From a virus (taxonomy: Duplodnaviria > Caudoviricetes): a stretch of DNA of 64,000 bases. Numbering within the stretch: position 1 is the first letter of the stretch; each line of letters opens with the position of its first letter. The stretch lies in the IMG/VR virus record IMGVR_UViG_3300028048_000121, positions 17,751 to 81,750 of that record. One strand, written 5' to 3'. Made by a program: the position numbers and the translations under genes. Of the stretch, positions 361-64,000 are shown piece by piece. The notes below the pieces were generated by a model. The model was given only the letters and a program-made list of their open reading frames with translations, did not search any database and was not told where the DNA came from.

Positions 361-1701
361 ATGGCAACAAAAAAATTAAAAGGACAACAAGAAGATGCAA
401 ATGGAAAATGTCAATGTTAGAGATGCGGTAAACGCATTGGTCAAATAAATTTTTATACATATAAAGATGGTAGCAAGTGTGAAATTTGTAAACCTTGTCT
501 AACAGCTCGTATTGATAATTTTGATCCTACTACTTTTGAATGGATTCTTGAAAAAATGGATGTTCCTTATGTACCAACTGAATGGAATGTATTAAGAGAT
601 AGGGCTTTTGCTAAAGATCCGTACAAAATGAATGGAATGTCTGTTATTGGTAAGTATCTTGCAAAAATGAAACTGAAACAGTGGAGTAAATATGGATACG
701 CTGATACAAAAAAGATTCAAGAAGAAATGGAAGCTGAAAAGGCTAAAAAGGAGAAAGCAGAAGCTGATGAAAAGGCACGATATGAAGCTGAGCTTAAAGT
801 AAAATTAAGTTAGGGAAAAATATCTCCCGCTCAATATCAGACTCTTGTTAGCACAGAAACTCAAAATAAAGAGTTACTACGTTGGGGAGATGTAATCACT
901 GGTTAGCATTTAGGTCAAATATTTTAGACTAATGGTCAACCGCAATCTTATGAGGAAGCATTAAAGCAAGCAAAAAATCCTTTTCAAGAACAGAATTTTA
1001 TGTCTGAAAGTGATATAATAGACCCTGGCGCTGATTTAGATAAAGAAGATAAAATGTATCTTGCGGTTAAATGGGGAAGGCTTTATAAGCCTAGTCAATG
1101 GGTTGCTCTTGAACAGTTATATAATGAATTTATGGATTCTTTTGATATTCAAGGCGCGGCACGTATAGATACATTAAAAATGATTTGTAAAACTTCTTTA
1201 AAAATGAATGAAGCAATTGATTGCGGCGATATTGATTCTTATCAGAAACTATCTCGTGTATACGATTCTATGATGAAATCCGCAAAATTTACAGAAGCAC
1301 AAAATAAAGATAAAGATGGAGATGCTATTGATTCTGCATCTGCTATTGTTGATTTTGTTGAGGCTCATACTGGTGAAATTCCACGTTATGAATGTAAAGA
1401 GCCACAAGATATTGTAGATCAAATTATTGCTGATTTAAAAGCTTATAATAAGAGTTTAATTTATGAAGATAAATCTTTGGCTCAAGAAATTGAAAAATAT
1501 TTACAAGATAAACGAATTTCAGAAGAAATGAAAAAAGATAAAAAAGATGCAAGAGCAAAAGGTTTGGAAAATGTTGAACTTGAAGATGATGATTTTACTG
1601 ATTATAAAAATTCCTTAAATCATATGAAATCTCATGATAAAGATTTAAATGATGAATTAATTTAGGAAGAATATATAAACAGGAGGGTTCAACACGAATG
1701 A
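361..1701 (+). CDS. Zinc-finger protein upstream of TerL, candidate terminase small subunit (TAG read-through)
   Basis: ATG 361 with SD; same frame as track ORFs 556 and 1000; only TAG interrupts; TGA 1699-1701 overlaps the TerL ATG (ATGA). CxC*RC and CxxC motifs; function inferred from position. Confidence 0.6.
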
Positions 1702-3434
1702 ATTTAAAAGAGTTATTAAAATTATCTTCTGACAGAGAATATAAAAAGCAAGGAATATCAGAATAGCGATTATTAAAAGATATTACTGGATTAAGAAAAT
1801 TAATTGCTTATTTTAGATAGTATCCTGATATTTTTGTTGATTTTATAAAAGGAAAAGATAGTACATTTAATTTTTTATTTTATCAAAGAGTGTTTCTTAG
1901 AATTGTTATGCGGCATCGTTATGTGTACGCGACTTTTCCGCGCGCTTATTCGAAGTCTTTTTTGTCAATGATGGCGCTGATGATAAGATGCATTTTATAT
2001 CCTAACTCACATTTGTTTGTGACCACTGGCGGCAAGGAACAAGCAGCTAGTATCACAATTGCTAAGATCTAGGAAATATGTAAACTTATACCTGGTTTAA
2101 ATAATGAAATTAACTGGGATCGCGGTGTTTCGACTAGATCAAAAGATAATGTTAAATATGTATTTAAAAATGGTTCTACTATTGACATATTGGCGGCAAG
2201 ACAGTCTTCAAGAGGACAACGTAGAACTGGTGGCTTGATGGAGTAGTGCGTTTTAATTGATGGTGATATTCTAAATGAAGTTATTATTCCTACAACAAAC
2301 GTTGATAGACGCTTGTCTGATGGTACTCGTCATAAAGAAGAGAATGTTAATAAATCACAGATTTATATAACCACCGCTGGATGGAAAAATTCGTTTGCAT
2401 ATCACAAACTGATATAGATCTTGATTAATTCAATTTTAGATCCAGATGAATATATGATTATGGGGGGAACTTATTAGACTCCAGTTATTTCTGGTCTATT
2501 GGATGAAGATTTTGTATAGCAATTAAGATTACAAGGTACATTTAATGATGAATCATTTAATAGATAGTATCGTAGTATTTGGTCTGGTGATGTAGAAAAT
2601 GCATTTTTCTCTTCTGAAAAATTTGATAAATATAGAGTATTATTACAACCATAGTATGAATATAGCGGGCGGTCTGCAAAAAATGCATATTATGTATTTG
2701 GAATAGACGTTGGGCGTGTAGGATGTACAACTGAAATTTGTGTTTTTAAAGTAACACCGCAAATTCAAGGGGCAGCTCATAAGACTCTTGTTAATATTTA
2801 CACTTATGATGCAGAACATTTTGAAACTCAATGTATTCATATAAAACATTTATATGCAAAATATAGACCTCGAAGAATTGCAATAGACGCCAATGGCTTA
2901 GGCGTTGGACTAATAGATTATTTAGTAAAAACACAAGATACAGAAGATGGCTAGTATCTTGCTCCTTTTGGAGTTTATAATACAGATGAATATCCTGAAT
3001 ATAAAAAATTTATAACTCCAGATACAGTACGAGATATTTTATTTTTAATAAAAGCAAATGCTCCTATTAATACTGAAGCATATAGTTATGCACAAACTCA
3101 AATGTTTAGTGGTAAAATTAGATTTTTAATTGATGAAGGATTAGCAAAAACTAAATTAATGTCCACTAAACAAGGTCAAAATATGAACATTGATGAAAGA
3201 AATGAATATTTAAGACCTTTTATTTTAACCTCTATTTTAAAAGAACAAATGTTAAATTTAGTAGAAGAAAATGAAGGAGTTAATATTATTCTTAAACAAA
3301 GTAATAGAAGTATCAAGAAAGATAAATTTTCTGCTTTTATTTATGGACTTTATTATATTAGATATGAAGAAGAATTAAATAAAAAGAAAAGAAAACGTAA
3401 TATTTCTGATTTTTTATTTTTTACTCCAAGTTAA
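1698..3434 (+). CDS. terL: Terminase large subunit (about 10 in-frame TAG)
   Basis: Walker A FPRAYSKS, RGQRRTGGLME* Walker B, ITTAG coupling motif, FNR*Y, nuclease GIDVG and KDKFSA motifs; one frame joins track ORFs 1890 and 3102. Confidence 0.9.
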
Positions 3435-3478
3435 GGTCAAATTTTATTAATGTTATAGAGAAAATTTTATAATAATAG
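3435..3478 (+). promoter_or_regulatory. Putative phage-specific promoter motif
   Basis: GGTCAAA at 3435, with TTTTA ending at motif position 35. Confidence 0.55.
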
Positions 3479-3583
3479 TGAAGGAGAAAAAAGGGAACAA
3501 TAGATTAGCTACCTATTGAGTAATGTTTACTCCTTTTAAACAAGCTTTTTTCTTTTTAATATTTTTATAAAGGAGATAAAAAT

Positions 3584-4489
3584 ATGAAAAAAATGACGAT
3601 AGGAGAATATAATAAAAAGTTACAAGAAAAATATCCTAAAGATAATTTATCTTGTCTTGAATATTCTTTAATGACAAAACCGTGTATAATTCAATGTAAT
3701 AACTGTGGTAAAATATATTCTTTTACTCAGGGGCAATTTGCTTTAAAACGAAAAGATATATTTTGTAAAAAATGTAAAGATTCTAATAGATGGAGAGAAA
3801 CTAAAGAAAAATTTAAAGATTGGTTAAATTATCAATAGAATTTTACATTAATAGATGATTTATCAGATATTTATGATTCACAACAACATGTGAAATGTCG
3901 ATGTAATAAATGTGGAAAAATTCAAGAAAATAAAAAAATTTATGATTATTTACGAGGTGTTCGATGTTATTGTGAAACTAAAAGCAGTAAAAAGACAGAA
4001 TAGATCTTGAGAAAAGAGTTGGATAATGAATATGATTTTTCTTTTGAAGAATATGTAAATACAGATACAAAAATGAATTTTATACATAAAAAGTGTGGAC
4101 AGAATTTTATTTATACGCCAAGGGATTTATTACGTAATTATGGGTTTTGTCCTAATTGTAATAAAAATCGTTCACATGGTGAAAATACAATTCATAACTT
4201 ATTAGTTGATGCTTCTATTTCTTTTATAGAAGAATATCAAATTAATATAGATAAACGAACCTTGAGATTAGATTTCTTTTTACCAAAAAATAATATTGCG
4301 ATTGAATTTAATGGGATTCAACATTATCAATCTATATAGCATTTTGGTGGATAGGAAGCCTTTATAAAAAGACAAAGATATGATAATATAAAAAAACAAT
4401 GGTGTGAACATAATAATATTAAATTAATTATTATAAAATATGATGAAGATATATTAAAAAGGTTAGAGATGGAAGGGGTTATAAAATGA
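3584..4489 (+). CDS. Free-standing homing-type endonuclease: CxxC repeats plus PD-(D/E)XK/Vsr-like domain (TAG read-through)
   Basis: Joins ORFs 3584 and 4007; SHGE...LRLDFFLP...IAIEFNGIQHY..I*HFGG*EAF; TGA 4487-4489 overlaps the next ATG. Confidence 0.75.
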
Positions 4490-4842
4490 AGGCATCGAGA
4501 GGTGAAATAAAGATTTTTTAGATTCTAAAATAGTCTGGATTAGAGTTCGCAGAAGAATACTCTTTTCCAGATTTAGTAAGTAATATGGGTCGTCCATTAA
4601 GATTTGATTTTGCGGTTTTTGATGATTAGCATAATATTGATTTTCTTATTGAATTTCAAGGTATTCAACATTATGAAGCTAAAGAAAAATTTGGTGGTTA
4701 TAATGGATTAAGAAAACAACAATATAATGATATGAAGAAAAGATAGTATTGTCGAGATCATGGTATTAATTTAGTTATTATTCCTTATTGGGATTAGGCA
4801 ATAGTAACCTATGATTATATTCTCAATGCGGCGGGCTATTGA
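4486..4842 (+). CDS. Small PD-(D/E)XK/Vsr-like nuclease in the packaging module (5 TAG; absent from track)
   Basis: MKASRGEIKIF*ILK*SG...LRFDFAVFDD*HNIDFLIEFQGIQHY...KKR*YC...IPYWD*A; ends TGA. Confidence 0.75.
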
Positions 4843-4862
4843 AGAAGGAGAGGTATCTAAAG

Positions 4863-6443
4863 TTGATTAATCGAATGGCTTAGATAAAAAAGAAAGGCTT
4901 TAATATGATTGGCACTGAAGATGATCAAATTCTTAATTAGGCTAATGGTTCTTATGTACCTGTTGATTTTGCAAAAATTCGAGTTGGAGTAAAATCTGTT
5001 TCAGATGCAATTCTTAAATTAGGTGATTTTCGTAAAATAAGTCCACAGTTAGCAGATAAGGTACAAGTTTTAAGAGCGATTCATTATGGTGACCTTGATA
5101 GAATGAGAGATATATCTAATTATTTTTATAAAATTAGTGGTATTTATCAAAGGTTATGTCGTTATATGGCATATATGTATAGATATGATTGGCTCGTAAC
5201 TCCTTATTATGATACTGATACAATTAAACCAAATAAATTACTCGATGGTTTTAATAAAGTTTTAACATATTTGGATAAATTTTAGGCGAAAAAATTTTTT
5301 GGTGAAGTTGCTTTAAAAGTAGTTAGAAATGGCTGTTATTATGGTTATTTAATTGCACGTAATGGAACTGTTGTTGTTCAGGAGCTACCACCAAAATATT
5401 GCAGATCACGTCTTATTGTAAATGGACAACCAGCTGTTGAATTTAATATGAAATATTTTAATGATATGTTCATGGATACAGAACAAAGAGCAAGAATGTT
5501 AAAAATATTCCCACCAGAGTTTGAAAAGGGTTATAAATTATATAAACAAGGAAAATTAAAACCTGAATTTCCTGGAGATGAATCTGGTTGGTATTTACTT
5601 GAAGTTGGTTCTGTTATTAAATTTAATTTAAATGGAGAAGATTTTCCACCTTTTATTGCGGTTATTCCTGCAATCATTGACTTAGATGCAGCTCAAGATC
5701 TCGATCGCCGCAAGATGCAACAGCAATTATTAAAAATCATTATTCAGAAAATGCCTATTGATAAGAATGGTGATTTGGTATTTGATGTGGATGAGGCACA
5801 ACAACTCCACAATAACGCAGTGCAAATGCTATCAAAAGCTATTGGTATTGATGTTCTAACAACTTTTGCTGATGTTGAAGTTGCAGATATGGCAGATAAT
5901 AAAACATCAACAACTACAGATGATTTAGAAAAAGTGGAACGCACAGTTTATAATGAAGCTGGTGTTTCACAGATGCAATTTAATACTGATGGTAATATTG
6001 CTCTTGAAAAATCTATTTTAAATGATGAAGCTTCAATGTGGAATTTAATTCAACAATTTGAAACATTTTTAAATATTTTATTAATACCATATAATAAAAG
6101 TCCAAAGAAAGTAAGTTATAGAGCGCAAATTCTTCCTACTACAATTTATAATTATAAAGACTTAGCTAAACAATATAAAGAACACACTCAATTAGGATAT
6201 TCAAAAATGTTACCACAAATAGCTTTAGGACAATCTCAAAGTGCAGTATTAGCTACGGCATACTTTGAAAATGATATTCTTGATTTAGTTAATGTATTTA
6301 TTCCACCATTAATGTCTAGTACAATGAATGCAGAAGTATTAAATCGTAATAAAAATAATAGTGGAGAAGGGGCGGGTAGACCTGAAAAAGCTGATGATGA
6401 AAAGTCTACTAAAACATTACAGAATCAAGAATCATTAAGTTAA
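4863..6443 (+). CDS. Portal protein (TAG read-through)
   Basis: TTG start after AAGGAGAGG; joins ORFs 5103 and 5448; about 526 aa between TerL and the head protease; C-terminal GRP motif typical of portals. Confidence 0.8.
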
Positions 6444-6507: not shown

Positions 6508-6534
6508 TGAGGGATGAAAGGAGAATTTTTACTT

Positions 6535-7875
6535 ATGCATCAATCAGTTGCAACAATTGATTCTCCAGAATTTTTAAATCTTCAACCTCTTGATATTAAC
6601 CCTTTAATGTCAAAATGTGAAATTAAAGTCCTTTATGTAGGAGCTAATAGAAACCACACTTTTATTAGTGAAGAAGTTGCGGCTGAGATTGGTAAAACTC
6701 TTCGTGGCGCCCCTATTGTTGGTTATTATAAATAGAGTAAAGAAGATTTCAGAGATCATGGAGAAAAAGTAATTATTGATGATGAAGGAGTTAAATTCGA
6801 ATGTCAAACTATTCCTTATGGATTTGTAGCACCAGATGCTAAAGTTTGGTTTCAAAATTTTGAAGACCATGATGGAATGGGAAATTCAGTAATTCATAAA
6901 TATCTTATGACTACTGGTTATCTCTGGACAGGTCAATTCCCAGAATCCAGCTTACCTGTGGAAGAAGGTCGTCCGCAATCAATGGAACTTCAAAATGAAT
7001 CTGTACAAGGACATTGGGAAACTAATTATGATAATGGAATGGACTTCTTTATTATAAATGATGCAATTATTCAAAAAATTTGCATATTAGGAGACGATGT
7101 TGAGCCTTGCTTCGAAGGCGCTTCTGTAACGGCTCCAGATGTAAGTACAAAATTTACATTAGACGATAATTTTAAGCACACACTTTATAGTATGATGCAA
7201 GATTTAAAGAATGCCCTAAACGGAGGAGGACAACAGATGGATAATCTTGAAAACACTGTTTCTGTTGAAGAAGAGACTGTAACACCTGTATCTGATTTTA
7301 CTCAGGTAGACGAAGTAGCTTCTGAAACAGTTTCAGAGGTTAATGAAAACATAGAGGATACTTCTGCTCCTGCTGATTATGTAAAAGAAGACGATGAAAA
7401 GAAAGAAGAATCTGATGATTCTGATTCTGATTCTGAATCTGAAGATGGTAATGATAAAGAGGATGAAGATAAAGAAAAAGCTAAAAAGTATGATTTACTT
7501 GAAGAGTCTTTTAATATTTTAAATGAATCTTTTAATACTTTAAAAGATTCTTATAGCGCACTTCAAAGTCAATATCAAGAACTTGTAAATTTCAAGAGAG
7601 AAATTGATAATCAGAAAAAGGATGCCCTTATTGCTGAATTTTATATGCTTTCCGATGAGGATAAAGCAGATGTCATTCAGAATAAAGAAAAGTATACTTT
7701 AGAAGAAATTAAAGCAAAACTTTCTGTAACTTGTTTTGATAAAAAAGTTAGTTTTTCTAAAGAAGAAACTAATAACAAGGAAGAAGAAATTGTTACTTAT
7801 ACAATAAATGATAATGAAAACAACAGCCTACCAGATTGGGTGAAAGCTGTTAAAGAACAAGAGAAACTTGGTTAA
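6535..7875 (+). CDS. Prohead protease / scaffold fusion (1 TAG at 6733)
   Basis: VLYVGANRN, PIVGYYK*SKEDFRDHG, GYLW, QSMEL, CILG..VEPCFEGA protease motifs; acidic coiled-coil C-terminus. Confidence 0.75.
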
Positions 7876-23703: not shown

Positions 23704-26700
23704 TTACTCCTTTATATTAATTCTTTCATGTTCTAAAGTCATATTTGAACCGTTAATATTTACAATTCTATATAATTGATGTGTTGAGGTTGTTTTATAA
23801 GTTTTAGCAACAAATGTATCTTCTCTTCTATATCCTGTTACCATAATTTTGGTTCCTCTAGAAAACCATCCTTTTTCTAATACTTTTTTACTACCATCTG
23901 TTTGTACTTCTGAAATTTGACGATTATACATGGCATAATATTCTTTAGTAAATTTTACATTAACAACACCTTCTGTTGTTAAAACCATAACCGATGCTTT
24001 TGTATTATTTTTACTAATAATTGTTCCTGCAATTTTATATAATTTAAAGATTGGAATATCTCTACCAGCTCTTTTGAAGAAATAATCTATTTCAGGTTCA
24101 TATGATAAAGTTGAAAAATTAACAATACCATATTTATGTTTATCAATATTAGCTAATTCATGTTCATGATAGTAAAAACACAAACTTTCCATTTCCCATG
24201 CGGAAATATTTCCAGTCGCATATTTATTCCATGTTTCATTAAATAACAAATTGTTATATTGATTTAATACTTCATTTTGATTTTCTTTTAACCAATTTCT
24301 TGCTTCATCCATTTCTTTTTGATAGATTTTATCCCATTTTGTTTGGAGAATACAAGTAATTCCATTAATAACATCAAGTTCATTTAAATCATAATATTGT
24401 GAATAAAAATTTAATGAACCTTCATCAAACACATAATATTTACCAACTTTTTTATTATCCTTAAGAAATTTATTAAAAACAAATACTTGTTTTTGTTTAT
24501 TTAATTCTTCTGGTACTAATCCACTTTTTAACAATCCATTAAAGTTCTGTAAAGTTAATCGTTTCTTTGGATCGCAAATTAATGATATATAATAAGCCAT
24601 AATTGAATATCTTGGATTTTCTTTACAAATTTTTGATGCCCATTTATTATCAATCTTATCAAAGGCTCCTGACTTAATTAAAGATACCATTTGAGTTTTA
24701 TTTAATGGGCATCTGCTCATAAAATCAATAATACCTTTATATGGGCGGCCGCTAATAATTTGATCAATTACTGGTCCACCAATTTTATTAACACCTTTTA
24801 GTCCAAACAAAATTTCATTATTTATTTCATCTGGTTCAAAACTAAAACCAGATTTATTAATATCAATTAGAGATACCTTAATTCCTCTTGATGTTATATC
24901 ACCAATGGCTTTTGCTAATTTGGAATAATCAGTTGATTTATCTTTTGTATTACCATCATCGTCATCGTCTTCTTCATCTTCAAGAGATGCGCTATTAACA
25001 ATGAGACAAGCTGTATTCCAATAAATTGGATTCCAATGAGTTGCAATATAAATTGTTTGCACTCCGATAAATGAATACGCAAGAGCGTGAATAATTGAGA
25101 ATGAATACCCCATCTGAGGTCCAACACCACATTCCCAAATATATTTACCAAGAGCAGGACTTGTTGCCTTATCCAAAATTTGTTGATGCAATTCTGGAAT
25201 TTTTGCCATTTGTTTTTTACCAACAATCTTGCGTGCGGCGTTTGCTTCTTTAAGAGAGAAACCACAGATTTTATCATCCATCAACATTCGCATTAACTGT
25301 TCCTGAGATGGAGGTACTCCATAAGATTGTTTAAAATATGGTTCAACCGCAGTTTGCTCTTCTTTTGTTAAACCAGCTCGATCCATTTCTTGATACCATA
25401 ATGATAAATTATTTTTATAACGAATATATTTTTCCATTGGTGTTTCTGCGCCTTTTTCTGCGGTCATAAGACGCATCAAACCATTGGCATCCGCCATCTC
25501 CAAAATATTCGTTGGTTTAATTTTTTTTGCCGCCTGAGAACCGACATCTGAATCAAACTGAAATATATTTAATACACTACCCTCTTGTAGAGCTTTCCAT
25601 ATTTCTTTTTTATCTAATGGCAAAACTTCTGGATGAAGATATTTATTATATACTTCTCTTAGTGTTAAATTACTATCAATTTTATTATATTTTTGAAGAA
25701 GTCTAATAGTTTCTGCAATTTTGTCTTGTACTTCTGTTACAAGAAAATCATACTTTGTCATACCACATGCTTCACAATTATGAAGATCCCATTGTGTAAT
25801 AATTTCACCTTTTGGAGTCTTCATGAAACATCCAAATTCATATGGATCTTCATCAAACAAAATTACACCTGAAGCATGACTAGAACGTTTATTAACAATT
25901 CCCTCTATCGCCATTGCAATATCTAAAAGACCAGGATATTTGTTTATTTCATTAATAAAAGCTGTAATGGGTTTTCTATCTTTATCTTTATTACCATAAA
26001 CGACATCTTTAAGAGGCCAGAGAAATCCTCTTTCACTTGGAATCAATGATGATAAGTATTGTGCTGTATCTACATCTATTCCATCTCGATAATCAGTTAT
26101 CCATCCATCTTCATTTTCATTTGTTGGTCCAGATACAGTATATCCAGATCCTTGACCCCTATATCCTCGACAAGCTGTAAGAATCGCACTCTTTGTTCCC
26201 TCGGTTCCAAAAGTGGCAATAAGAGTACATCCAAGATTTTTCCTTGAAAGTTCATCAATTTCATTTGAAAAGTTTGCACCACGTTCCTTTTTTATTTCTT
26301 GAAGAATTAATGGTCTTTTGCTTGGACACAGATCGATATCGATGTCGCCAAGTTCTACACGGTCTCGATTGAGATATCTCCAAAATGGCAACTCCCACTG
26401 AATAGGGTCAAGCTGAGTAATACCTAAAAGATAATGATTTAATCCTGAACATGATGAACCTCTACCAGCACCAACTGTACTACCACATTCCCAAAATAAG
26501 TCAACATAATGTTGAAGAGTAATTGGATAACTAAACATATTAGTTTCAAGCTTTTTACTAATCGTTTTTTTAATATCTGCTTCTTCTTCAAGTCGAGAAA
26601 GATAAATATCATTATCTTTATTAAGTTGTTTTAATTTTATTAAACATTCATTTACCCAATATCTTTCATATTTATCATTTGATATTTTCATATTATATAA

Positions 26701-27678
26701 ATTTGGATATTGAGATAAACTTTTATCTTCATATGGAAGATAATTTTTTACTTCTACTTTTGGAATAGTTTGTTTATGTCTAATATCATAATTTTCAATT
26801 TTATTATAAATCTCATATGAATTATTTACTAATTCATCATAATCTAATTCAGATGGAGCAATATTTTCTTTTATATCATTTTCATCTTGAAGATATGTAT
26901 ATTCATAAAATGCATCAACTTCACGTTCTCCACCTTTTGAATTAAGATATGCTTTATGAACAAATCTATCTTCTTTTTTAAGATAATGAGCATCTGACCC
27001 AAGAACCATTTTACATTTAAATGCGGCAGCCACAGCTTTAAGACGCCTATTAACCGCAATTTGTTCGTTTGATTGACCTGGTGCACATTCAATATAGAAG
27101 TCTTCATTAAAAAGATTTTTACACCATAAAATAAATTTTACAATATTATTATGGGCTTCTGTAATTCCTATTGTATCTTTATGTTTTTCAGCTTTAATAA
27201 GATTTAAAACTTGTGATGATACTTCTCCGCCTAAACAAGCTGTTGTTGCAATTAAACTATTTGGATATTTATTAACAATTTCCTCAAGTTCATCATAAAT
27301 AGTTGGAACTCTTTCAAGTCCTCTATCCCAATAGCTGTTCATCCACGCCCTTGAAGATAATTCTCTTAATGCTCTAAAACCAGTTTTATTTTTTGCAATC
27401 AAAATAAAATGATAATATTTTTGACCCATTTCTCTATTTGGCGTTAAATATATTTCATTACCTAGTGCAACTTTAAAATCTGGATGTTCTTTTAATATAT
27501 CTTGAGCATAAAAATTTGCTTGCGGCGCCCCCGATAGACATTCATGATCCGTAAGTGCCAATCCGCATAAACCTATTTCTATCGCTCTATCTATAAGAGC
27601 TGGAATTTTTATTATACTATCAAGCAAACGAATATTTGAGTATTCACTGTGCGAGTGCGGCTCAAAGCGTTTTATCAT
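23704..27678 (-). CDS. dnaE: DNA polymerase III alpha subunit (family C)
   Basis: PHP HSHSEYS/LTDHE, GRGS, DIDID, HASGV, KYDFL, YSFS..HA; 1324 aa with no TAG. Confidence 0.95.
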   Translation of the reverse strand: MIKRFEPHSHSEYSNIRLLDSIIKIPALIDRAIEIGLCGLALTDHECLSGAPQANFYAQDILKEHPDFKVALGNEIYLTPNREMGQKYYHFILIAKNKTGFRALRELSSRAWMNSYWDRGLERVPTIYDELEEIVNKYPNSLIATTACLGGEVSSQVLNLIKAEKHKDTIGITEAHNNIVKFILWCKNLFNEDFYIECAPGQSNEQIAVNRRLKAVAAAFKCKMVLGSDAHYLKKEDRFVHKAYLNSKGGEREVDAFYEYTYLQDENDIKENIAPSELDYDELVNNSYEIYNKIENYDIRHKQTIPKVEVKNYLPYEDKSLSQYPNLYNMKISNDKYERYWVNECLIKLKQLNKDNDIYLSRLEEEADIKKTISKKLETNMFSYPITLQHYVDLFWECGSTVGAGRGSSCSGLNHYLLGITQLDPIQWELPFWRYLNRDRVELGDIDIDLCPSKRPLILQEIKKERGANFSNEIDELSRKNLGCTLIATFGTEGTKSAILTACRGYRGQGSGYTVSGPTNENEDGWITDYRDGIDVDTAQYLSSLIPSERGFLWPLKDVVYGNKDKDRKPITAFINEINKYPGLLDIAMAIEGIVNKRSSHASGVILFDEDPYEFGCFMKTPKGEIITQWDLHNCEACGMTKYDFLVTEVQDKIAETIRLLQKYNKIDSNLTLREVYNKYLHPEVLPLDKKEIWKALQEGSVLNIFQFDSDVGSQAAKKIKPTNILEMADANGLMRLMTAEKGAETPMEKYIRYKNNLSLWYQEMDRAGLTKEEQTAVEPYFKQSYGVPPSQEQLMRMLMDDKICGFSLKEANAARKIVGKKQMAKIPELHQQILDKATSPALGKYIWECGVGPQMGYSFSIIHALAYSFIGVQTIYIATHWNPIYWNTACLIVNSASLEDEEDDDDDGNTKDKSTDYSKLAKAIGDITSRGIKVSLIDINKSGFSFEPDEINNEILFGLKGVNKIGGPVIDQIISGRPYKGIIDFMSRCPLNKTQMVSLIKSGAFDKIDNKWASKICKENPRYSIMAYYISLICDPKKRLTLQNFNGLLKSGLVPEELNKQKQVFVFNKFLKDNKKVGKYYVFDEGSLNFYSQYYDLNELDVINGITCILQTKWDKIYQKEMDEARNWLKENQNEVLNQYNNLLFNETWNKYATGNISAWEMESLCFYYHEHELANIDKHKYGIVNFSTLSYEPEIDYFFKRAGRDIPIFKLYKIAGTIISKNNTKASVMVLTTEGVVNVKFTKEYYAMYNRQISEVQTDGSKKVLEKGWFSRGTKIMVTGYRREDTFVAKTYKTTSTHQLYRIVNINGSNMTLEHERINIKE

Positions 27679-31939: not shown

Positions 31940-32626
31940 TTATAAATATTCCCAATGATAACCACCGCTTGTTTTTTGAGCGCCTCTACAGGTTGCGGCT
32001 ATTCCAGTGTGTGCAATCCCTGTTTTTTGGCTAGCTTCACGAGTTGATTGAAAAATTTGATTTAATTCAATACATAAACATTTTTTACCATTACTATGTT
32101 TACCATAATTAGGGTTGTTTGAGCCAGACATTCTTTTACTATGATTAATTTTCCATTCTTCATCATGTTTTATTTGTGGAGATGGATGAGTTTTCCAATA
32201 CTATTTTAAAAATATAGAATGTTCTTTTCTTCTTTTCTAACCTTCTTTAGTTTGATAATATTCTTTTTTTAACTAACTTTGTTTTGTTTTCCATTCTTTA
32301 GATGGATGCCAACCAGAAGTCCCCTAACCACCTTCGGTTAAATTATAATGATTTGGATTTTTAAAACTATTATAATGATTTATCCAAAATTTTTCTCTAT
32401 CAGAAGCAATTAATGAATATTGCTCTTCAGGGATGTTTTCTATAATAGATAGTATAAAATTATCCTTTCCATATTTATTAATAGCATGATTTAATGCCGC
32501 ACATCCTTTTCTATTATATTTTGCCTCAGATAAATGTGTACTCCAACGATTTTCAATATTTTTGGCCTTGCCAATATAAATATGATGATTTATTTTATTT
32601 TCAATTTTATAAATTCCACAACTCAT
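31940..32626 (-). CDS. GIY-YIG homing endonuclease with NUMOD-type C-terminus (TAG read-through)
   Basis: GIYKIEN..YIG, YNLTEGG*G, C-terminal HTH/NUMOD1-like GGYHW; joins ORFs 32324 and 31940. Confidence 0.8.
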
Positions 32627-34466: not shown

Positions 34467-35141
34467 TCAAGTCAATTCTTTCTTTTTCCAATAGTAATTT
34501 TTATATTTAGTATGTAATTCTATTGCTCTAGTTAAAGGTTCGTAACAAGTAATATTTAAATAATTTAAAGCTTCTTTTTTAGAATCAAATGTTTTTAATA
34601 AAATTTCATTATCATCAAACATTTGGATAGCAATTTTATTATTTGGTTTTCTTAATTTAGCTTTTTCACTCATAATTTTTTTAGCTTCAGTAGAATGCTT
34701 TTTGCCCTTAAAAGGATTTTCATGCGTTAAAAAATATTCTTTTTGTTGTTTGCTAAGTTTAGCTTTTTCTTTTTTACCTTTATCAGTCTAATAATACTTT
34801 TTTAAAGAATTACTAATTTTTAATTTTAATTCATCGGTTTTTTCTGGGGTTGCATCTCCACCTGCTGTTTGATTATATCCATATAAACTATTATTAGTGT
34901 TATATAAAGCAATTAATTCAATTTCTTTTTGTTTAGCCTATTGCTCTGTTAAATTTGTAAAAAGAATTTTATGCTAAAAATTATTCCATCCATATTTCTA
35001 AATTGCTTTATAAAAAATTTGTCGTTTATAGCCTAAACCATTTTTCCATCTTTTATTTGGATCTTTTTCTGATGTAATACCAATGTATTTTTTATTATTA
35101 ATTTTATTAATATGAATATAAACTTGCCACTTATTTTCCAT
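34467..35141 (-). CDS. GIY-YIG homing endonuclease (TAG read-through)
   Basis: VYIH.N..N.KKYIGIT, GYNQTAGG, NUMOD3-like GKKHSTEAKK; ATG overlaps the primase end. Confidence 0.75.
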
Positions 35142-37258: not shown

Positions 37259-37321
37259 ATGCTATCTCCTATCTGACACAACCTAAATTTAAATAAAGTT
37301 CATTTCTTTCTCTTCTGTGTC

Positions 37322-55654: not shown

Positions 55655-57091
55655 TTATCTTAAATATTTTTTAGAGCAGAATCCAGTATATTTACCATAT
55701 ACAACATAATACCAATCTCCAGTATAATAGCCATAACAGGTAACTTTACTACCATCTGGCATAACTGTGATAATTGGTTTAGATAAACTTGCCCCTGACC
55801 GCAATCTTAAGTTTGCTGTTGTAGTATATGTTTTTGCAATATTTTTATTAAAAGATTGAGCATAATCAACTTTTATTGTAGATGGAACAGTAGGTGGATT
55901 TACTGTTGTAGGAATATTTCCAACAGTAAATGTTTCTTTTTGCTATTGCTTTGTTCCATATTTAGGTTTTGCATAACCGCGAATACATCCATACCCAATT
56001 GGAATAGTTCTACGACCAACTTTTCCACCATTCATGTTACCTTCAATAACAGTTATATTATTACCAGATACAGATTCAACCATTCCAATATGGTCTGCAT
56101 ATCCATTATTCGGTTGAGTTGTATCATCCCAGTTATAAGTAATTAAATATCCTTTTTCTGGAACTATTGTACCATCTTCTTCCCAGATACCAGCTTTTTT
56201 AAATAATGCGATATGATTTTCAACACCACATTCAGTTCCACCAATTAAATCTACTGCATTTAATTTAATGAAAATTGCACTAATAGTAGTGTCACAATAA
56301 GCATCCTTATAAGTTACTTTATAGCCTCTTGCTCTTGGTGTATAATTATTATAAGTATCAATAATTACTTTATGAGTACCTTCAGAACGAGATAAACCAA
56401 TCCATGATCTAAAAATATTTAAAGCATCATCTGCGGTAACAGTATTATCATTTTTATTATCCACGATTACAGCTGGCTATGGTTGAGCTATTATATTATT
56501 TAACATTGTTTCGTCAAATAAATAATTCATATCAACATATCCATTAATGCCATTAATTCTTCCTGTTGATGTATATTGTTGCATAGCGCATGGATAATCG
56601 GGGGCACCCGCATAATCTGCTAACCAAATAGGATATTCTGAAAGTTGGTTCCAATTATAATAGTTCTTATAATAATCTGTATTAGTATAAATAAATAATT
56701 TTGTACACCCAAGAGATTTTAATGTATCTAAATACTATTTTGTATATGCTGTACATTTTTCTCTTGTGCAAATTTCTTTATTTTTCTTCCAAGTGTCATA
56801 TTCAAGATCTACGGCAATCCATGTATTTATTGGATTTAAACCAGCTTTTTTAATATTATCAAATGTTGCTTGAGCATTTTCTTTAATAGTTGCTCCATTG
56901 GTATAAACAAAATGATATACCATAATTGGAATATTATTATTTTGACATTCTTTTACATATTCAATAAATTTTGCGTCTATTGCTTTTCTATAACCCTATC
57001 TAAGAACAATAAAATCTACTTCTTTACTATTTTTTACTTTTTTAAAATCTATATTTCCTTGATGATAGGAAATATCAATACCTTTTAACAT
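55655..57091 (-). CDS. Endolysin: GH25 muramidase + CHAP + SH3b (4 TAG)
   Basis: GIDISYHQG, DLEYD, QQYTSTGRI.GI.GYVDMN; YCD..S, DHIGMV, IEGN; NLRLRSGAS...WYYV. Confidence 0.88.
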
Positions 57092-60288: not shown

Positions 60289-63200
60289 ATGGCAAATGAG
60301 ATTAGATATCAAGTTGGCTTTGATGTAAAACAAGGCGACTTGAGTAAATTAAAATCTTCATTACAATAGCTTCAAAAATTAAAAATAAGTGATGTAATGA
60401 AGATAAATAGTACAGATGCAGCATCTGCTACAACTATGCTTACTAAAATAAAAACATAGGCAAAAAATGTAGAAGATGCTTTAAAAAATGCTTTTAATGC
60501 CAAATTAAACACTGTAAATATATAGAGTTTTAACAGATCTTTAAGAACTTCTGGTACTACTATATAGCAAATTTATAAAGCATTTAGTTCTGCGGGGACG
60601 AGTGGAGAAAACGCATTTAGAAGTTTGTCATCTCAAGTTTTAAGTACAAATATCCAATTAAAAGAAACACATGGTTTGTTGGATAAGATGGCAACAACAC
60701 TTACTAATACTATTAAATGGAATGTTGCTTCTGGTGCTGTGAATAGTATGTCTCGTGCAGTTGAACAAGCTTGGGGATATACTAAATCATTAGACACTTC
60801 ATTAAATAATATTCGTATAGTTACTGGTAAATCTGCTGAAGAAATGGGTAATTTTGCGGTAAAAGCAAATGAAGCTGCTCAAAGTTTAGGCAAAACCACA
60901 ACAGATTATACCAATGCTGCATTAATTTATGCTCAGCAGGGTTTGTCTGATAAAGAAATATAGGAAAGAGCAAGAATTACTTTAATGACAGCTAATGTTA
61001 CTGGACAATCTACATCAGATGTTTCTGAGGAATTAACAGCTGTCTGGAATGGTTATAAAGTAAATGCAGAAGAGGCGGAACTTTATATTGATAGACTTGC
61101 TGCGGTTGCTGCTACAACAGCATCAGACCTTGAGGAATTAAGTACTGGTATGAGTAAGGTCGCAAGTGCGGCAGCCGCGATGGGAGTTGGTGAAGACCAA
61201 TTAGCTGCACAATTATCAACTATTATATCTGTTACCCGCCAAGCTCCAGAATCAGTTGGTACTGCGTTAAGAACTGTGTATGCTCGTATTTCTGATATTA
61301 AAGCTGGTATTGATGAGGATGGAGTTACTCTTGGCAATTATTCTGGCAAGATGGCAGAATTAGGATTTAATGTTCTTGATGCTGCGGGTAACCTTCGCGA
61401 TATGGGCGAGGTTATGGAAGAAATTGGCGGTCGTTGGCAAGATTTAACCAGAGAACAACAGATTTCTCTTGCACAAACAATGGCTGGTCAGAGACAGTAT
61501 TCTAATTTAATTGCCTTATTTGATAACTTTGAAAAATATAATGAAGCATTAAATACTGCTCAAAATGCGGCAGGTACTTTACAAAAACAGCAAGATATTT
61601 ATATGGAATCAACTGCTGCTCATTTACAAACATTAAAAGCTGCCGTTGAAAACATATACGATAGTTTAGCTGATACAGATAGTATTAACAGTATAGCTGA
61701 TGGACTTGCAGTTGCCGCAAACTTAACTGCTAATTTAATTGATAGTCTTGGTGGTGGTAGTGCTGTATTAAAATCACTTGGTGCTATTGGTGTTACTGTT
61801 TTTAGTGAACAAATAGCAAAAGGAATAAATACCACTATTACCAATTTAGAGATTGGTCGAGACAATGCTATACAGTTTGATCAGGCTCTTCAAGCTACAA
61901 AAGATTGGCAAGGAATTCCTAAATTAGATGAAACTAGTAAAAAATTATTAGAAAATAGAGAGCAATTATTAGAATTATCTAGACTTATGACACCAGAACA
62001 ATTTTCTGGTATGCAAAAAATATTAAATGATATTACAAACTTAGGTAATGAAATAAAAACAATATAGTCTAAAATTTAGCCACTATCAACTGTTTTAAAA
62101 GATTTTACAAATACTTCTTTAACTGATGTTTTAGGTAATAAAGAAGAAATTGATAATATAATTACAGAAATTGATAAACCTATTGATGATTTAGAAAAAT
62201 TACAATAGAAAATTGAAAATGTAAAAGAAACTTTTAGAGATTCTTTTAGTGAAGCACAGGTTTTATTTAATAAAAATAAAAATATTGATACTTTTGATGA
62301 TGTATTTGATGAAGCTCAAATTAAAGTTATTTCTTTCTTAGATACGTTACATGATTTAAAAGAAACTAATGCTTTTAAAGGTCTTTCTAAAGAAGCAAAA
62401 GAAGAGTTAGATAAAATTGATATTGAATGGGATGAATTACAGGATAAATTAAAAACAATGTCTTCTGCTGAAGATAAATCTCAAGCTTTTAAAGCATTTT
62501 TTGATAAAATATCTGATGCTGCCTCTACATCTACAGGAGAAATTAAAAGAAAATATGAAGAACTTTTAGGAGTTTTAAACGATCCAGCTATTGTTAATTC
62601 TCTTGAATAGAAACAACAAAAATTAGAAAAAATGATGAATAGTTTTGTTACTGGTCAAGAGAGAATGCAAAGAGCTGCTAATATTGAGAATTGGGCAAAG
62701 GCTGCTGGTGGTATTGCACAAGTTGGTTCTGCAATTCAGCAAATACAAAATCTTGGTAGTATTTGGAAAAATTCTGACTTATCTGGTGGTCAAAAATTAT
62801 TTCAAACTATTACTAATTTATCAATTTCATTACCTATATTAGCTAATGGTTTTACAAAAGCAACGGTTGCATTAGGATTAATGAAAGTTGCAACAACAGA
62901 AGAATAGATTGCGGCTATTAAAGCAACAACAACTGAAATAGCTCATGCAGGAGCCATTTCATTAGTAGAAACAGCTTCTGGTGCAGCAGCGGTAAAAGTT
63001 CAATTATTAAATAAGACTTTATTACTTAATCCTTTTATATTAGCGGCCGCTGCAGTAATGGGATTAGTAGCTGCATATGATAAATTTACAATGTCTGCAA
63101 AATAGGCAGAATAGGCATTGTCTAATTTTAATAATAAACAAGCCGAATTAACAAAAAATATTTCATCTACTCAAAATACTGTTCAAGATTTAGAATCTTT

Positions 63201-64000
63201 AAGAGAAGAATATAATTCTTTATCTAACATTGTTGGACAATATGATCAAAACATTGATGCTCTTTCTGATAAAGAAAAAGAAAGATGGGAACAAATTAAA
63301 CAAAAAATTGTTGATGTTAATCCAGATATTCTTGCTGCTTACGACGATCAACATCAAAGAATTATAATAAAAAATGACGCACTTGATCAAACTATTGAAA
63401 AATTGTAGAAAATAAATGATTTAGAATTAAAAGAATTTGTTAATGGAGATGATTTTACTAAAGCTATTGAGGCAAAGAGTGTAAAATCTGTAGACGCAAG
63501 GAAACAAGCTGAAGCATAGCAAAAATCTCTTGAAAATGATTTTGGTTCTACAATTAGCGGACAAAATTTTAGTATAATTGATCCAATTATACTAAATGCA
63601 ACTAAAGCATAGGATATTTCATAGTCTGAAATTCAAGAATTTACAACGCTTAGTACAAAAACAATTTAGAAATTAACAAAAGAGTAGAAAAAGAGATATA
63701 ATGAACTTTTAGATTTATTTGCCAATAGTAAAAATCAAGAATTAAGTTCTTTTGTTTCTGAATATAAAGATGATTTATTATAGTCTATAGATGAATATTT
63801 AGGGGCTTGGGATGCGGCAAATGGAAAATTAATTGCTGCTCAAGAAAAAGCCAAATAGGCATCTAATGGCGATCCTACAATGTTAGTAGAAACATTAATG
63901 CTTGGAAATGAAAATAAGGCTAATTATGAAAGATTAAAATAGGCTGGTGTATAGGATCTTGAAGCAAGATTAACCGCCTGGGCTGAAGGTCATAAAGAAG
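60289..64000 (+). CDS. Tail tape measure protein (partial; many TAG)
   Basis: One frame from ATG 60289 to the window end with only TAG interruptions; TP901-type core (IRIVTG, YAQQG, GTALRTVYARI, AGQRQ). Confidence 0.88.

What the first reader, a model, noticed from the sequence alone, without database searches (positions are those of the whole stretch)
1698..4842. TAG appears to encode glutamate, not glutamine: candidate undescribed phage genetic code
Seen, compared with remembered family consensus: TerL Walker B GGLME* (TAG 2244) has TAG at the catalytic second acidic residue, where E->Q is the classic ATPase-dead change. Other Glu-like sites are TerL FNR*Y (2565, the FxxEY motif), GISE*RL (1764), FR*YPD (1818) and QP*YEY (2652). 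Outside TerL: I*HFGG*EAF (4337, 4352; consensus E.FGGEE), KKR*YC (4744), IPYWD* (4795), GIY-YIG TEGG*G (32324; GGE/DG), RecJ GTIE*K (33531) and TEE*IE, protease YYK*SKEDF (6733). A minority of sites fit Gln as well or better (KLI*IL 2415, CH*IK 183, TKF*IP). Known: phage TAG reassignment is described as Gln (table 15); TAG->Glu is known from eukaryotic codes 30 and 31. Inference: a tRNA-Glu-derived suppressor, or a tRNA-Gln(CUA) charged by a non-discriminating GluRS and escaping GatCAB amidation, could give Glu or mixed decoding.
Basis: partly seen in the sequence, partly recalled or inferred. Interest (0 to 1): 0.95.

Follow-up and report, generated by a model that had tools for sequence, protein, structure and literature searches.

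The report
Phage reads TAG as glutamate
This large gut or rumen-type phage uses the stop codon TAG inside its packaging, tail and lysis genes exactly where related phages have glutamate, so it appears to use a genetic code (TAG = Glu) that differs from the TAG = glutamine code assumed for all such phages.

Summary
TerL (1698-3434) has 10 in-frame TAGs and the two homing-endonuclease genes after it (3584-4842) have 9.

I mapped codons onto 79 related viral loci and 8 complete relatives. They split into a TAG-using clade and standard-code relatives with no in-frame TAG.

- **Comparative test.** In 33 standard-code subjects, the 98 alignable TAG sites fit Glu best (site-weighted logL -255.5, against -279.7 for Gln). 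All 8 columns that are at least 90% conserved are Glu.
- **Walker B site.** The TAG at 2244 is Glu in 33 of 33 relatives and in 56 of 56 diverse homologs. It aligns with the DE of T4-type gp17.
- **Within the clade.** TAG alternates with GAA/GAG, not with CAA/CAG.
- **Control.** The same method returns Gln for Phass-1, which is published as TAG=Gln.
- **tRNA.** All five complete TAG-using relatives carry one tRNA(CUA) with the acceptor and D-arm signature of Bacillota tRNA-Glu. None has a GluRS or release-factor gene. This contig ends before the tRNA array.

The papers I could search report only TAG=Gln in phages. Earlier unchecked notes of this scan report TAG=Glu on other DNA (at least 19 genomes). 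Peptide evidence is lacking.

The parts
1698..3434 (+). Terminase large subunit gene, 578 codons, 10 in-frame TAG
   Evidence: Whole only if TAG is sense. Matches phrog_2 'terminase large subunit' at 3.8e-17. The TerL profile hits gp17 structures at E 1.6e-5. TerL of cultured Bacillota phages is 32-45% identical.
2244..2246 (+). TAG at the second acidic residue of Walker B (catalytic Glu position)
   Evidence: Glu in 33 of 33 standard-code relatives, in 56 of 56 full-length representatives and in 6 of 6 cultured phages plus Phass-1. Aligned on the E of gp17 'DE'. Within the TAG-using clade the codons are GAA 22, GAG 9, TAG 9.
2565..2567 (+). TAG in the conserved F-x-R-E-Y motif of TerL
   Evidence: Glu in 33 of 33 standard-code relatives. 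In 56 representatives: E 45, N 10, Q 1.
2652..2654 (+). TAG at a conserved Glu column of TerL
   Evidence: Glu in 33 of 33. E in 44 of 56 representatives.
1764..1766 (+). TAG at a conserved Glu column of TerL (I-S-E-x-R)
   Evidence: E in 29 of 30 standard-code relatives. Within the TAG-using clade: TAG 29, GAG 4, GAA 4.
2070..2072 (+). TAG at a conserved Glu column of TerL (K-I-x-E-I)
   Evidence: E in 31 of 32. Within the clade: TAG 25, GAA 14, GAT 1.
3584..4489 (+). Homing-endonuclease gene (HNH-type by PHROG), 4 in-frame TAG
   Evidence: phrog_559 at 1.9e-49. The TAG sites are poorly informative: 4337 is S 16, E 8; 4352 is A 8, K 7, W 5.
4486..4842 (+). Short homing-endonuclease gene, 5 in-frame TAG
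   Evidence: phrog_9084 at 2.8e-27. 4795 is E in 28 of 29. 4519 is E 15, D 13. 4627 is E 13, D 9, N 7. 4744 is E 11 of 29, the commonest. 4531 is A 14, E 8.
4839..6443 (+). Portal gene, 3 in-frame TAG
   Evidence: phrog_2739 at 2.9e-84. 4881 is E 13 of 19. 4938 is Q 7 of 26, variable. 5283 is G 10, K 7.
55655..57091 (-). Endolysin gene, 4 in-frame TAG
   Evidence: phrog_6745 at 3.2e-47.
60289..63999 (+). Tail tape measure gene (runs off the window), 22 in-frame TAG
   Evidence: phrog_4211 at 9e-60. ORF list.
23704..27678 (-). DNA polymerase gene, 1324 codons, no TAG (example of the TAG-free replication genes)
   Evidence: phrog_405 at 1.2e-205. No odd codon. NrdD, helicases, ligase and both topoisomerase II subunits are also TAG-free.

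Best explanation
This phage, and a monophyletic clade of roughly 130-145-kb relatives, translates TAG as glutamate. TAA and TGA remain stops.

Shown by comparison:
- TAG behaves as a synonym of GAA/GAG.
- It sits at invariant Glu positions, including the catalytic Walker B Glu of the terminase.
- It is concentrated in packaging, minor virion, tail, lysis and homing-endonuclease genes.
- It is absent from replication genes and from several of the virion genes.

Shown in complete relatives, not in this truncated contig:
- One phage-encoded tRNA with anticodon CUA carries the acceptor stem and D arm typical of Bacillota tRNA-Glu.
- These relatives have no phage GluRS/GlnRS gene and no release-factor gene.

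Inferred:
- The host is a Bacillota bacterium.
- Its own GluRS charges this tRNA with Glu.
- Because the tRNA lacks U1-A72 and has a tRNA-Glu-size D loop, the Glu is not converted to Gln by the amidotransferase.
- TAG-bearing late genes can be fully translated only once the tRNA is made, as proposed for other recoded phages.
For: 1. **Two groups of relatives.** 43 loci use in-frame TAG and 36 have none over about 1,000-4,600 aligned codons each. In the standard-code genomes TAG ends 16 of 100 homologous genes; in the TAG-using genomes it is the first stop in 14 of 283.
2. **Standard-code subjects only** (33 after removing duplicates, including Enterococcus phage VRE9_4 and Geobacillus virus E3). 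Over 98 TAG sites the site-weighted logL is Glu -255.5, Gln -279.7, Asn -293.0. Glu failed to beat Gln in 4 of 5000 bootstraps over sites. Columns at least 90% conserved: Glu 8 of 8.
3. **Within the clade** (1,678 codon pairs), the query's TAG faces GAA 34.5%, TAG 31.4%, GAG 7.0%, CAA 5.4%. Conversely, relatives' TAG faces Glu 41.7%, TAG 28.8%, Gln 5.3% in this genome (n=1,730).
4. **Walker B.** TAG 2244 is E in 33 of 33 and 56 of 56, and aligns on gp17 'DE'.
5. **Positive control.** The same pipeline on Phass-1 gives Gln best (-436.1 against Glu -452.1). Its conserved columns are Gln 6, Glu 0, as published (PMC10607447, passages read).
6. **tRNA(CUA) presence.** It is found in 5 of 5 complete TAG-using relatives and in 0 of 3 standard-code genomes examined. 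RF00005 scores are 45.8-64.7 bits. Compensatory pairs are kept and G2.U71 is present in 5 of 5.
7. **tRNA type.** An anticodon-free pattern from it hit 80 of 80 examined bacterial loci that ARAGORN calls tRNA-Glu (76 UUC, 4 CUC), nearly all titled as Bacillota genera or families.
8. **No phage charging or release factors.** PF00749 is in 0 of 5 and PF00472 in 0 of 5.
9. **Amino-acid composition.** Glu is 6.17% in TAG-containing ORFs and 7.42% in TAG-free ORFs. Counting TAG as Glu gives 7.45%.
10. **Single origin.** The TAG-using clade is one bipartition of the TerL tree, with support 1.0.
Against: - No peptide or aminoacylation evidence. The amino acid is inferred from selection on sequences.
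- Taken singly, 44 of 98 sites lean to the Gln row and 54 to the Glu row. Most TAG sites are variable and carry little signal. TAG sites are less conserved than ordinary Glu sites (Glu share 30.7% against 48.7%).
- Two columns are 80% or more Gln in standard-code relatives (183 and 14075), against 1 of 111 such columns among ordinary Glu sites.
- The suppressor tRNA is not on this contig, which stops about where the collinear relative G001 reaches 81.7 kb; G001's tRNA array lies at 115-127 kb.
- The tRNA(CUA) misses some E. coli tRNA-Glu determinants listed in PMC9976931. It has a 5-nt variable loop (no deletion of 47), G2.U71 instead of U2-A71, and C34 and A36 instead of U34 and C36.
- Overall similarity to the phages' own tRNAs does not single out tRNA-Glu. 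Best matches of 66-71% include Asp, Lys, Trp, Met, Gln and Glu.
- The host and its Gln-charging pathway are not identified.
Confidence: 0.85

Rival explanations
1. Ordinary code 15: TAG is read as glutamine, and the Glu columns only reflect GAG-to-TAG mutation with tolerated E-to-Q changes.
For: - All published phage cases are assigned Gln: preprint 10.1101/2021.08.26.457843 (passages) and PMC10607447 (passages).
- Two TAG sites lie in Gln-conserved columns of standard-code relatives, 183 and 14075.
- One TAG in a GIY-YIG paralog faces CAA in another paralog of about 33% identity.
Against: - Gln is 24 nats worse than Glu.
- Gln is found in 0 of 33 and 0 of 56 homologs at the Walker B site.
- True Gln sites of the same genes keep Gln at 46-66% and show Glu at 5-7%. 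TAG sites show Gln at 6-7% and Glu at 46-47%.
- At 183 and 14075 the TAG-using clade itself has GAA/GAG/TAG, not CAA.
- The method does return Gln for Phass-1.
- The tRNA lacks U1-A72 and G73.
Confidence: 0.03
2. Ambiguous decoding: the tRNA(CUA) is charged partly with Glu and partly with Gln (by a host GlnRS or by partial transamidation), so each TAG gives a Glu/Gln mixture.
For: - Comparative data cannot exclude a minor Gln fraction.
- Gln-conserved columns are more frequent among TAG sites (2 of 10 at 80% or more) than among ordinary Glu sites (1 of 111).
- The Borges preprint says TAG suppressors are glutaminylated in E. coli (passage).
Against: - TAG is kept at catalytic and invariant Glu positions in many lineages: 9 of 40 clade members at Walker B, 23 of 42 at 2565. 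A large inactive Gln fraction would be costly there.
- Both Gln-like columns are GAA/GAG in clade relatives.
- The CAG-to-TAG transition gives a simple mutational reason for a few Gln-to-Glu replacements arriving as TAG (inference).
Confidence: 0.1
3. TAG encodes some other residue (Asp, Lys, Asn, or a non-canonical one such as pyrrolysine, the label ARAGORN gives to any CUA tRNA).
For: - ARAGORN labels the tRNAs 'Pyl', by anticodon alone.
- Asp is the second residue at some sites (2517, 2952, 4519).
Against: - LogL values: Asn -293.0, Lys -295.7, Asp -300.6, against Glu -255.5.
- Invariant Glu columns.
- The tRNA body matches the bacterial tRNA-Glu pattern in 80 of 80 loci.
- I did not search for pyl genes.
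Confidence: 0.02

Closest known systems
TAG-recoded 'code 15' phages with suppressor tRNA(CUA): crAss-like, Lak, Agate and others (preprint 10.1101/2021.08.26.457843; PMC9523058)
   Same: - In-frame TAG is concentrated in late structural and lysis genes.
- Early and replication genes are free of it.
- The relatives carry a phage-encoded tRNA(CUA).
- The host is presumed to use the standard code.
   Different: - The residue is Glu, not Gln.
- No RF2 gene was found in 5 complete relatives.
- The preprint states that only TAG-to-Gln and TGA-to-Trp were observed.
Phass-1 group (PMC10607447; OQ749652), about 136-kb human-gut phages related to Enterococcus phage EF1
   Same: - Same broad lineage: TerL is 44.7% identical.
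- Similar genome size and a large tRNA array.
- TAG in TerL and tail genes.
- Bacillota-phage relatives.
   Different: - Phass-1 TAG columns are Gln by my own test. Its tRNA(CUA) has U1-A72, G73 and a 4-bp D stem.
- Here the columns are Glu and the tRNA is tRNA-Glu-like.
- In the TerL tree the two are separated by standard-code lineages, so the two reassignments look independent.
NCBI tables 30 (peritrich nuclei) and 31 (Blastocrithidia): TAG = Glu in eukaryotes
   Same: TAG is read as Glu (table 30 reading checked).
   Different: - Those codes also read TAA as Glu. Here TAA ends 70 of 93 called ORFs.
- They are eukaryotic nuclear codes, not a virus-borne tRNA acting in a standard-code bacterium.
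Lak megaphages (PMC8346664)
   Same: The authors noted that some TAGs in terminase alignments faced Glu (passage).
   Different: They kept Gln as the translation and explained the Glu cases by GAG-to-TAG mutation. Here Glu is the calibrated best fit and Gln is rejected.
Bacillota tRNA-Glu(UUC)
   Same: - Acceptor stem G1-C72, G2.U71, C3-G70, continuing to G6-C67.
- A 3-bp D stem with U11-A24.
- An A-G-Y-G-G-U-U D loop.
- The same T loop.
   Different: - Anticodon CUA.
- A 5-nt rather than 4-nt variable loop.
- A D loop one base longer.
- C1-G72 in four of the five phage tRNAs.
- A different anticodon stem.

Membership tests
Stop-codon-recoded phage (TAG as sense) | Essential genes are interrupted only by in-frame TAG and become full length when TAG is read through | tested here: met
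   TerL, portal, tape measure and endolysin are restored. There are 155 TAGs in 44 of 94 ORFs, and every ORF closed within the contig (93 of 94) ends in TAA or TGA.
Stop-codon-recoded phage (TAG as sense) | Phage-encoded suppressor tRNA(CUA) | tested here: inconclusive
   - No credible tRNA on this 81.75-kb contig, which is 61% complete.
- Present in 5 of 5 complete clade relatives.
- The nearest, G001, is collinear with this contig, and its tRNA array lies beyond the contig's end.
Stop-codon-recoded phage (TAG as sense) | Recoded codon enriched in late genes and avoided in early/replication genes | tested here: met
   - TAG is present in TerL, portal, tape measure, endolysin and homing endonucleases.
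- It is absent from DNA polymerase, NrdD, helicases, ligase and topoisomerase II.
- Expression timing itself was not measured.
NCBI table 15 (TAG = Gln) | TAG columns hold Gln in standard-code homologs | tested here: not met
   - Gln share at TAG sites is 6.4-6.7%, against 36-46% at true Gln sites.
- LogL for Gln is 24 nats below Glu.
- Conserved columns are Glu in 8 of 8.
NCBI tables 30/31 (TAA and TAG = Glu) | TAG read as Glu | tested here: met
   (comparative inference, no peptides).
NCBI tables 30/31 (TAA and TAG = Glu) | TAA also read as Glu | tested here: not met
   - TAA terminates 70 of 93 ORFs.
- For G002 and G006 no in-frame TAA appeared in the alignments; G008 showed one TAA and one TGA, G002 one TGA.
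Bacterial tRNA-Glu identity set (as listed in PMC9976931) | G1-C72 | tested here: inconclusive
   G1-C72 in G001, the nearest relative. C1-G72 in G002-G005. U1-A72 in none.
Bacterial tRNA-Glu identity set (as listed in PMC9976931) | U2-A71 (E. coli) | tested here: not met
   G2.U71 in 5 of 5. The same G2.U71 is present in the 80 bacterial tRNA-Glu genes matched.
Bacterial tRNA-Glu identity set (as listed in PMC9976931) | U11-A24 and an augmented D helix (3-bp D stem, long D loop) | tested here: met
   A 3-bp D stem with U11-A24 and an 11-nt D loop in 4 of 5. G005 has a longer, different D arm.
Bacterial tRNA-Glu identity set (as listed in PMC9976931) | Absence of nucleotide 47 (4-nt variable loop) | tested here: not met
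   The variable loop is 5 nt in G001-G004. The bacterial tRNA-Glu genes matched have 4 nt.
Bacterial tRNA-Glu identity set (as listed in PMC9976931) | Anticodon U34 U35 C36 and A37 | tested here: not met
   The anticodon loop C-U-C-U-A-A-A is invariant. U35 and A37 are kept; 34 is C and 36 is A.
Bacterial tRNA-Gln identity set (PMC9976931) | U1-A72, G2-C71, G3-C70, G73 | tested here: not met
   None of these in any of the 5 tRNA(CUA). The Phass-1 tRNA(CUA) has U1-A72 and G73.
Terminase large subunit (gp17-type ASCE ATPase) | Walker A, and Walker B with a catalytic Glu | tested here: met
   - The profile A2 matches gp17 chains 3ezk, 2o0h and 3cpe at E 1.6e-5 to 6.6e-5.
- R-x-x-S-K-S aligns on gp17's G-K-T.
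- 'EE' aligns on gp17's 'DE'.
- That this E is the catalytic residue of gp17 is recalled, not tested here.

The most novel reading that the evidence does not exclude
A genetic code not in NCBI's tables (TAG = Glu, with TAA and TGA as stops) arose once inside a clade of roughly 130-145-kb phages of Bacillota. The ancestors used the standard code. The event was independent of the TAG = Gln reassignment in the related Phass-1 lineage. It is carried out by a phage-borne tRNA with a Bacillota tRNA-Glu body and a CUA anticodon. The host's own GluRS accepts this tRNA despite the changed anticodon, and the amidotransferase ignores it.
Probability: 0.75. Interest if true: 0.9.

Novelty: new variant of a known kind. 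Interest (0 to 1): 0.85.

Why it matters
- **Annotation.** Phage gene callers and databases translate every TAG-recoded phage with table 15. For this clade that puts Gln at catalytic and invariant Glu positions, for example the terminase Walker B Glu. That misleads annotation, structure prediction and proteomic searches, which would miss TAG peptides by 0.984 Da.
- **Biology.** The Borges preprint suggests that host GlnRS and TrpRS are intrinsically open to being repurposed for phage code change. This clade would show that a GluRS route exists as well, and that related phage lineages can settle on different meanings for the same stop codon.
- **Applied use.** It also offers a natural Glu-inserting amber suppressor for study in Gram-positive hosts.

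Tried and rejected
- **Single-sequence searches of TerL.** Pfam and PDB gave nothing. A 9-sequence profile gave only a chance hit. A 47-sequence profile was needed.
- **Overall similarity of the tRNA(CUA) to the phages' own tRNAs.** This did not point to any isotype. Best matches of 66-71% were spread over Asp, Lys, Trp, Met, Gln and Glu, so the tRNA is not a recent copy of the phage tRNA-Glu(UUC).
- **The tRNA-like element with a CTA loop, 13 kb before the window.** I rejected it as the suppressor. ARAGORN finds it only at a lowered threshold, and RF00005 gives no match at E up to 10. The homologous spot holds tRNA-Lys in G003 and G004, and a diverged element for which ARAGORN calls no tRNA in G001 and G002.
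- **GIY-YIG paralog alignment.** Too divergent (28-42% identity) to decide anything about Gln-like TAGs.
- **Phage GluRS/GlnRS and release-factor genes.** Sought and not found in 5 complete relatives. Other aaRS families and pyl genes were not searched.
- **Not examined or not attempted.**
  - G007 and G010 (standard-code records) were scanned for tRNAs, but their anticodons were not examined.
  - The host was not identified.
  - No read-level or expression analysis was attempted, because it cannot tell Glu from Gln.
  - Supplementary files of papers were not opened. The tRNA sequences and recoded-gene tables of PMC10607447 and of the Borges study are in supplements and could bear on whether any of their genomes belong to this clade.

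Full report
**What the window is.** The window is bases 17,751-81,750 of an 81,750-nt viral contig that CheckV rates 61% complete. GC content is 30%. Under table 11 the first 9 kb breaks into short ORFs. With TAG read as sense it becomes a tight row of genes: 361-1701, 1698-3434, 3584-4489, 4486-4842, 4839-6443 and 6514-7875. PHROGs name 1698-3434 a terminase large subunit, 4839-6443 a portal, and the two genes between them homing endonucleases. Over the whole contig I counted 155 in-frame TAGs in 44 of 94 ORFs, and the 93 ORFs closed within the contig end in TAA (70) or TGA (23). TAG occurs in TerL (10), tape measure (22), endolysin (4), portal (3), minor virion genes and homing endonucleases. 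It is absent from DNA polymerase, NrdD, helicases, ligase, both topoisomerase II subunits and several of the virion genes.

**Relatives and codon map.** A TerL search of viral contigs returned 79 loci at 59-98% identity. I ran tblastn with all ORFs of the contig (X at TAG) against them, and mapped each aligned residue back to codons on both sides. The loci split cleanly. 43 have in-frame TAG (6-90 each), and 36 have none over about 1,000-4,600 aligned codons. I then fetched five complete TAG-using genomes (G001-G005) and three standard-code ones (G006, G008, G009). I also fetched stretches of the cultured Enterococcus phage VRE9_4 and Geobacillus virus E3. In the standard-code genomes TAG is the first stop after 16 of 100 homologous genes. 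In the TAG-using genomes it is the first stop in 14 of 283.

**Which amino acid.**
- All loci together: the query's TAG faces GAA 36.2%, TAG 17.5%, GAG 9.9%, CAA 5.0% and CAG 1.1% (2,618 pairs).
- Calibration on the same alignments:

| Query sites | Subject Glu | Subject Gln | Subject TAG |
|---|---|---|---|
| True Glu | 63.8% | 3.8% | 4.0% |
| True Gln | 4.8% | 65.6% | 0.7% |

- Standard-code subjects only (33 after dropping five duplicates), each of 98 TAG sites weighted equally: logL is Glu -255.5, Gln -279.7, Asn -293.0, Lys -295.7, Asp -300.6. Glu failed to beat Gln in 4 of 5000 bootstraps over sites.
- The signal comes from the conserved sites. Columns at least 90% conserved: Glu 8 of 8. 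Columns at least 80% conserved: Glu 8, Gln 2.
- Taken singly, 54 sites lean to Glu and 44 to Gln, because most TAG sites are variable.
- The two Gln-conserved columns (183 and 14075) are GAA/GAG/TAG within the TAG-using clade. They are lineage-specific Gln-to-Glu replacements, not evidence for Gln.
- Inside the clade TAG alternates with GAA (34.5%), TAG (31.4%) and GAG (7.0%), with CAA at 5.4% (1,678 pairs). The reciprocal count gives Glu 41.7%, TAG 28.8%, Gln 5.3% (1,730 pairs). Exchange at this rate among genomes 75-90% identical fits synonymous turnover, not amino-acid replacement.

**The terminase sites.**
- In standard-code relatives: 2244, 2565 and 2652 are Glu in 33 of 33, 2070 in 31 of 32, and 1764 in 29 of 30.
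- Six cultured Bacillota phages and Phass-1 have Glu at 2244 and 2565.
- Among the 150 best representatives from a 1.84-billion-protein library, I aligned the 56 that are full length. 2244 is Glu in 56 of 56. 2565 is E 45, N 10, Q 1. 2652 is E in 44 of 56.
- A 47-sequence profile matches T4-type gp17 structures (E 1.6e-5). The family's R-x-x-S-K-S lies on gp17's G-K-T, and its 'EE' lies on gp17's 'DE'. That the second of these is the catalytic glutamate of gp17 is from memory.

**Control.** Phass-1 is a 136-kb human-gut phage with TerL 44.7% identical to this one. It is published as TAG = Gln (PMC10607447, passages read). The same pipeline on 41.6 kb of Phass-1 gives Gln best (-436.1, against Glu -452.1). 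Its conserved columns are Gln 6, Glu 0. So the method can return Gln, and two related lineages differ in the meaning of TAG. In a TerL tree of 73 rows (rows with under 90% coverage were dropped), the 38 TAG-using tips, 37 relatives and the query, form one bipartition with support 1.0. It is nested among standard-code relatives, and Phass-1 lies far outside.

**The tRNA.**
- Presence.
  - The window and the contig hold no credible tRNA.
  - The contig is collinear with G001 from about 2.7 to 81.7 kb, and G001's tRNA array lies at 115-127 kb.
  - Each of the five complete TAG-using genomes has exactly one tRNA(CUA). G006, G008 and G009 have none.
  - All five tRNAs pass the Rfam tRNA threshold (45.8-64.7 bits).
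- Structure.
  - They keep a cloverleaf with compensatory changes, an invariant C-U-C-U-A-A-A anticodon loop, and G2.U71 in 5 of 5.
  - Four of the five have a 3-bp D stem with U11-A24 and an 11-nt D loop. The first pair is G1-C72 (G001) or C1-G72, never U1-A72.
- Comparison with bacterial tRNAs.
  - I took a pattern from the G001 tRNA, leaving out the whole anticodon arm.
  - All 80 loci kept are tRNA-Glu by ARAGORN (76 UUC, 4 CUC), and nearly all titles name Bacillota genera or families.
- Identity rules.
  - A review of tRNA identity (PMC9976931, passages) lists the relevant elements. For bacterial tRNA-Glu: G1-C72, U2-A71, U11-A24, the augmented D helix, absence of 47, and U34-U35-C36-A37. 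For tRNA-Gln: U1-A72, G2-C71, G3-C70 and G73. U1-A72 is the mark read by the amidotransferase, with G1-C72 and a D-loop U20a as antideterminants.
  - The phage tRNA meets some Glu features and misses others (5-nt variable loop, C34, A36). It meets none of the Gln acceptor features. The Phass-1 tRNA(CUA) has U1-A72 and G73.
- No GluRS/GlnRS catalytic domain and no release-factor domain is encoded in the five genomes, so a host enzyme must charge the tRNA.

**Host and mechanism (inferred).** All cultured TerL relatives infect Bacillota: Enterococcus, Geobacillus, Alicyclobacillus, Brevibacillus, Lactococcus and Bacillus. I infer three steps. A Bacillota GluRS glutamylates the tRNA(CUA). The amidotransferase does not touch it. 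TAG-bearing late genes are then translated once the tRNA is present, as proposed for other recoded phages. None of these steps is shown. One compositional hint agrees: TAG-containing ORFs are short of Glu (6.17% against 7.42%), and counting TAG as Glu closes the gap (7.45%). Counting TAG as Gln would raise Gln to 5.04%, against 2.92% in TAG-free ORFs.

**Literature.** Seven searches found no report of TAG = Glu in a phage.
- PMC9523058 validates Gln by proteomics in two crAss-like phages (abstract in the listing only).
- PMC11210395 and PMC13037316 treat TAG recoding as table 15 (passages).
- PMC8346664 saw some TAGs facing Glu in Lak terminases but kept Gln (passages).
- The library lacks most subscription journals, and supplements were closed.

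**Earlier notes of this scan.** Unchecked notes report TAG = Glu with a tRNA-Glu-like suppressor in other genomes (at least 19). Notes on this same genome raise the Gln-like minority, the tRNA-like element and the uneven TAG use. I read them after my own counts.

**Verdict.** This is a new variant of phage stop-codon recoding. TAG = Glu is well supported by comparison, its tRNA is plausibly identified in relatives, and the charging step and the absence of Gln are still to be shown.

Noticed in passing
13,009 bases before the window's start (contig 4658-4741, minus strand): A GC-rich (56%) tRNA-like element with a good T arm and acceptor stem, and a CTA-centred loop on an elongated arm. ARAGORN finds it only at a lowered threshold and RF00005 gives no match. 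The syntenic spot holds tRNA-Lys(UUU) in G003 and G004, and a diverged element without a tRNA call in G001 and G002. In all five genomes it sits behind a conserved block of about 28 nt.
   Followed up: partly
G002 90222-90296 and G006 90065-90135 (loci L122, L143): ARAGORN calls a tRNA with anticodon UUA (reads TAA) in one TAG-using genome and in one standard-code genome. No in-frame TAA appears in the aligned genes of either.
   Followed up: partly
L059 10001-12584; also L028, L029, L047, L067: In the nearest relative and several others the TerL match spans about 2.5 kb instead of 1.73 kb, so the gene is interrupted by about 0.8 kb. TerL of Enterococcus phage EF1 is likewise in three pieces with an HNH homing endonuclease annotated under the match.
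   Followed up: no
window 3584-4842; 31940-32626, 34467-35234, 36239-37279, 45255-46172: Six homing-endonuclease genes: two between TerL and portal, and four GIY-YIG paralogs on the minus strand. All carry TAGs (4, 5, 4, 6, 4, 6). These mobile genes use the phage's altered code.
   Followed up: partly
L061 (whole locus): A relative only about 59% identical shows 6 in-frame TAGs in about 2,300 aligned codons, facing GAA twice and CAG, GAT, ACT and TCT once each in this genome. It may be a second TAG-using lineage. It was not placed in the tree because TerL coverage was under 90%.
   Followed up: no
L168 and L295 (Phage Phass-1, OQ749652): By the same codon-column test Phass-1 reads TAG as Gln, and its tRNA(CUA) has U1-A72 and G73. 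Two related groups of Bacillota-type phages therefore give TAG different meanings.
   Followed up: yes
whole contig: TAG-containing ORFs have 6.17% Glu codons against 7.42% in TAG-free ORFs. Adding TAG to Glu gives 7.45%.
   Followed up: yes
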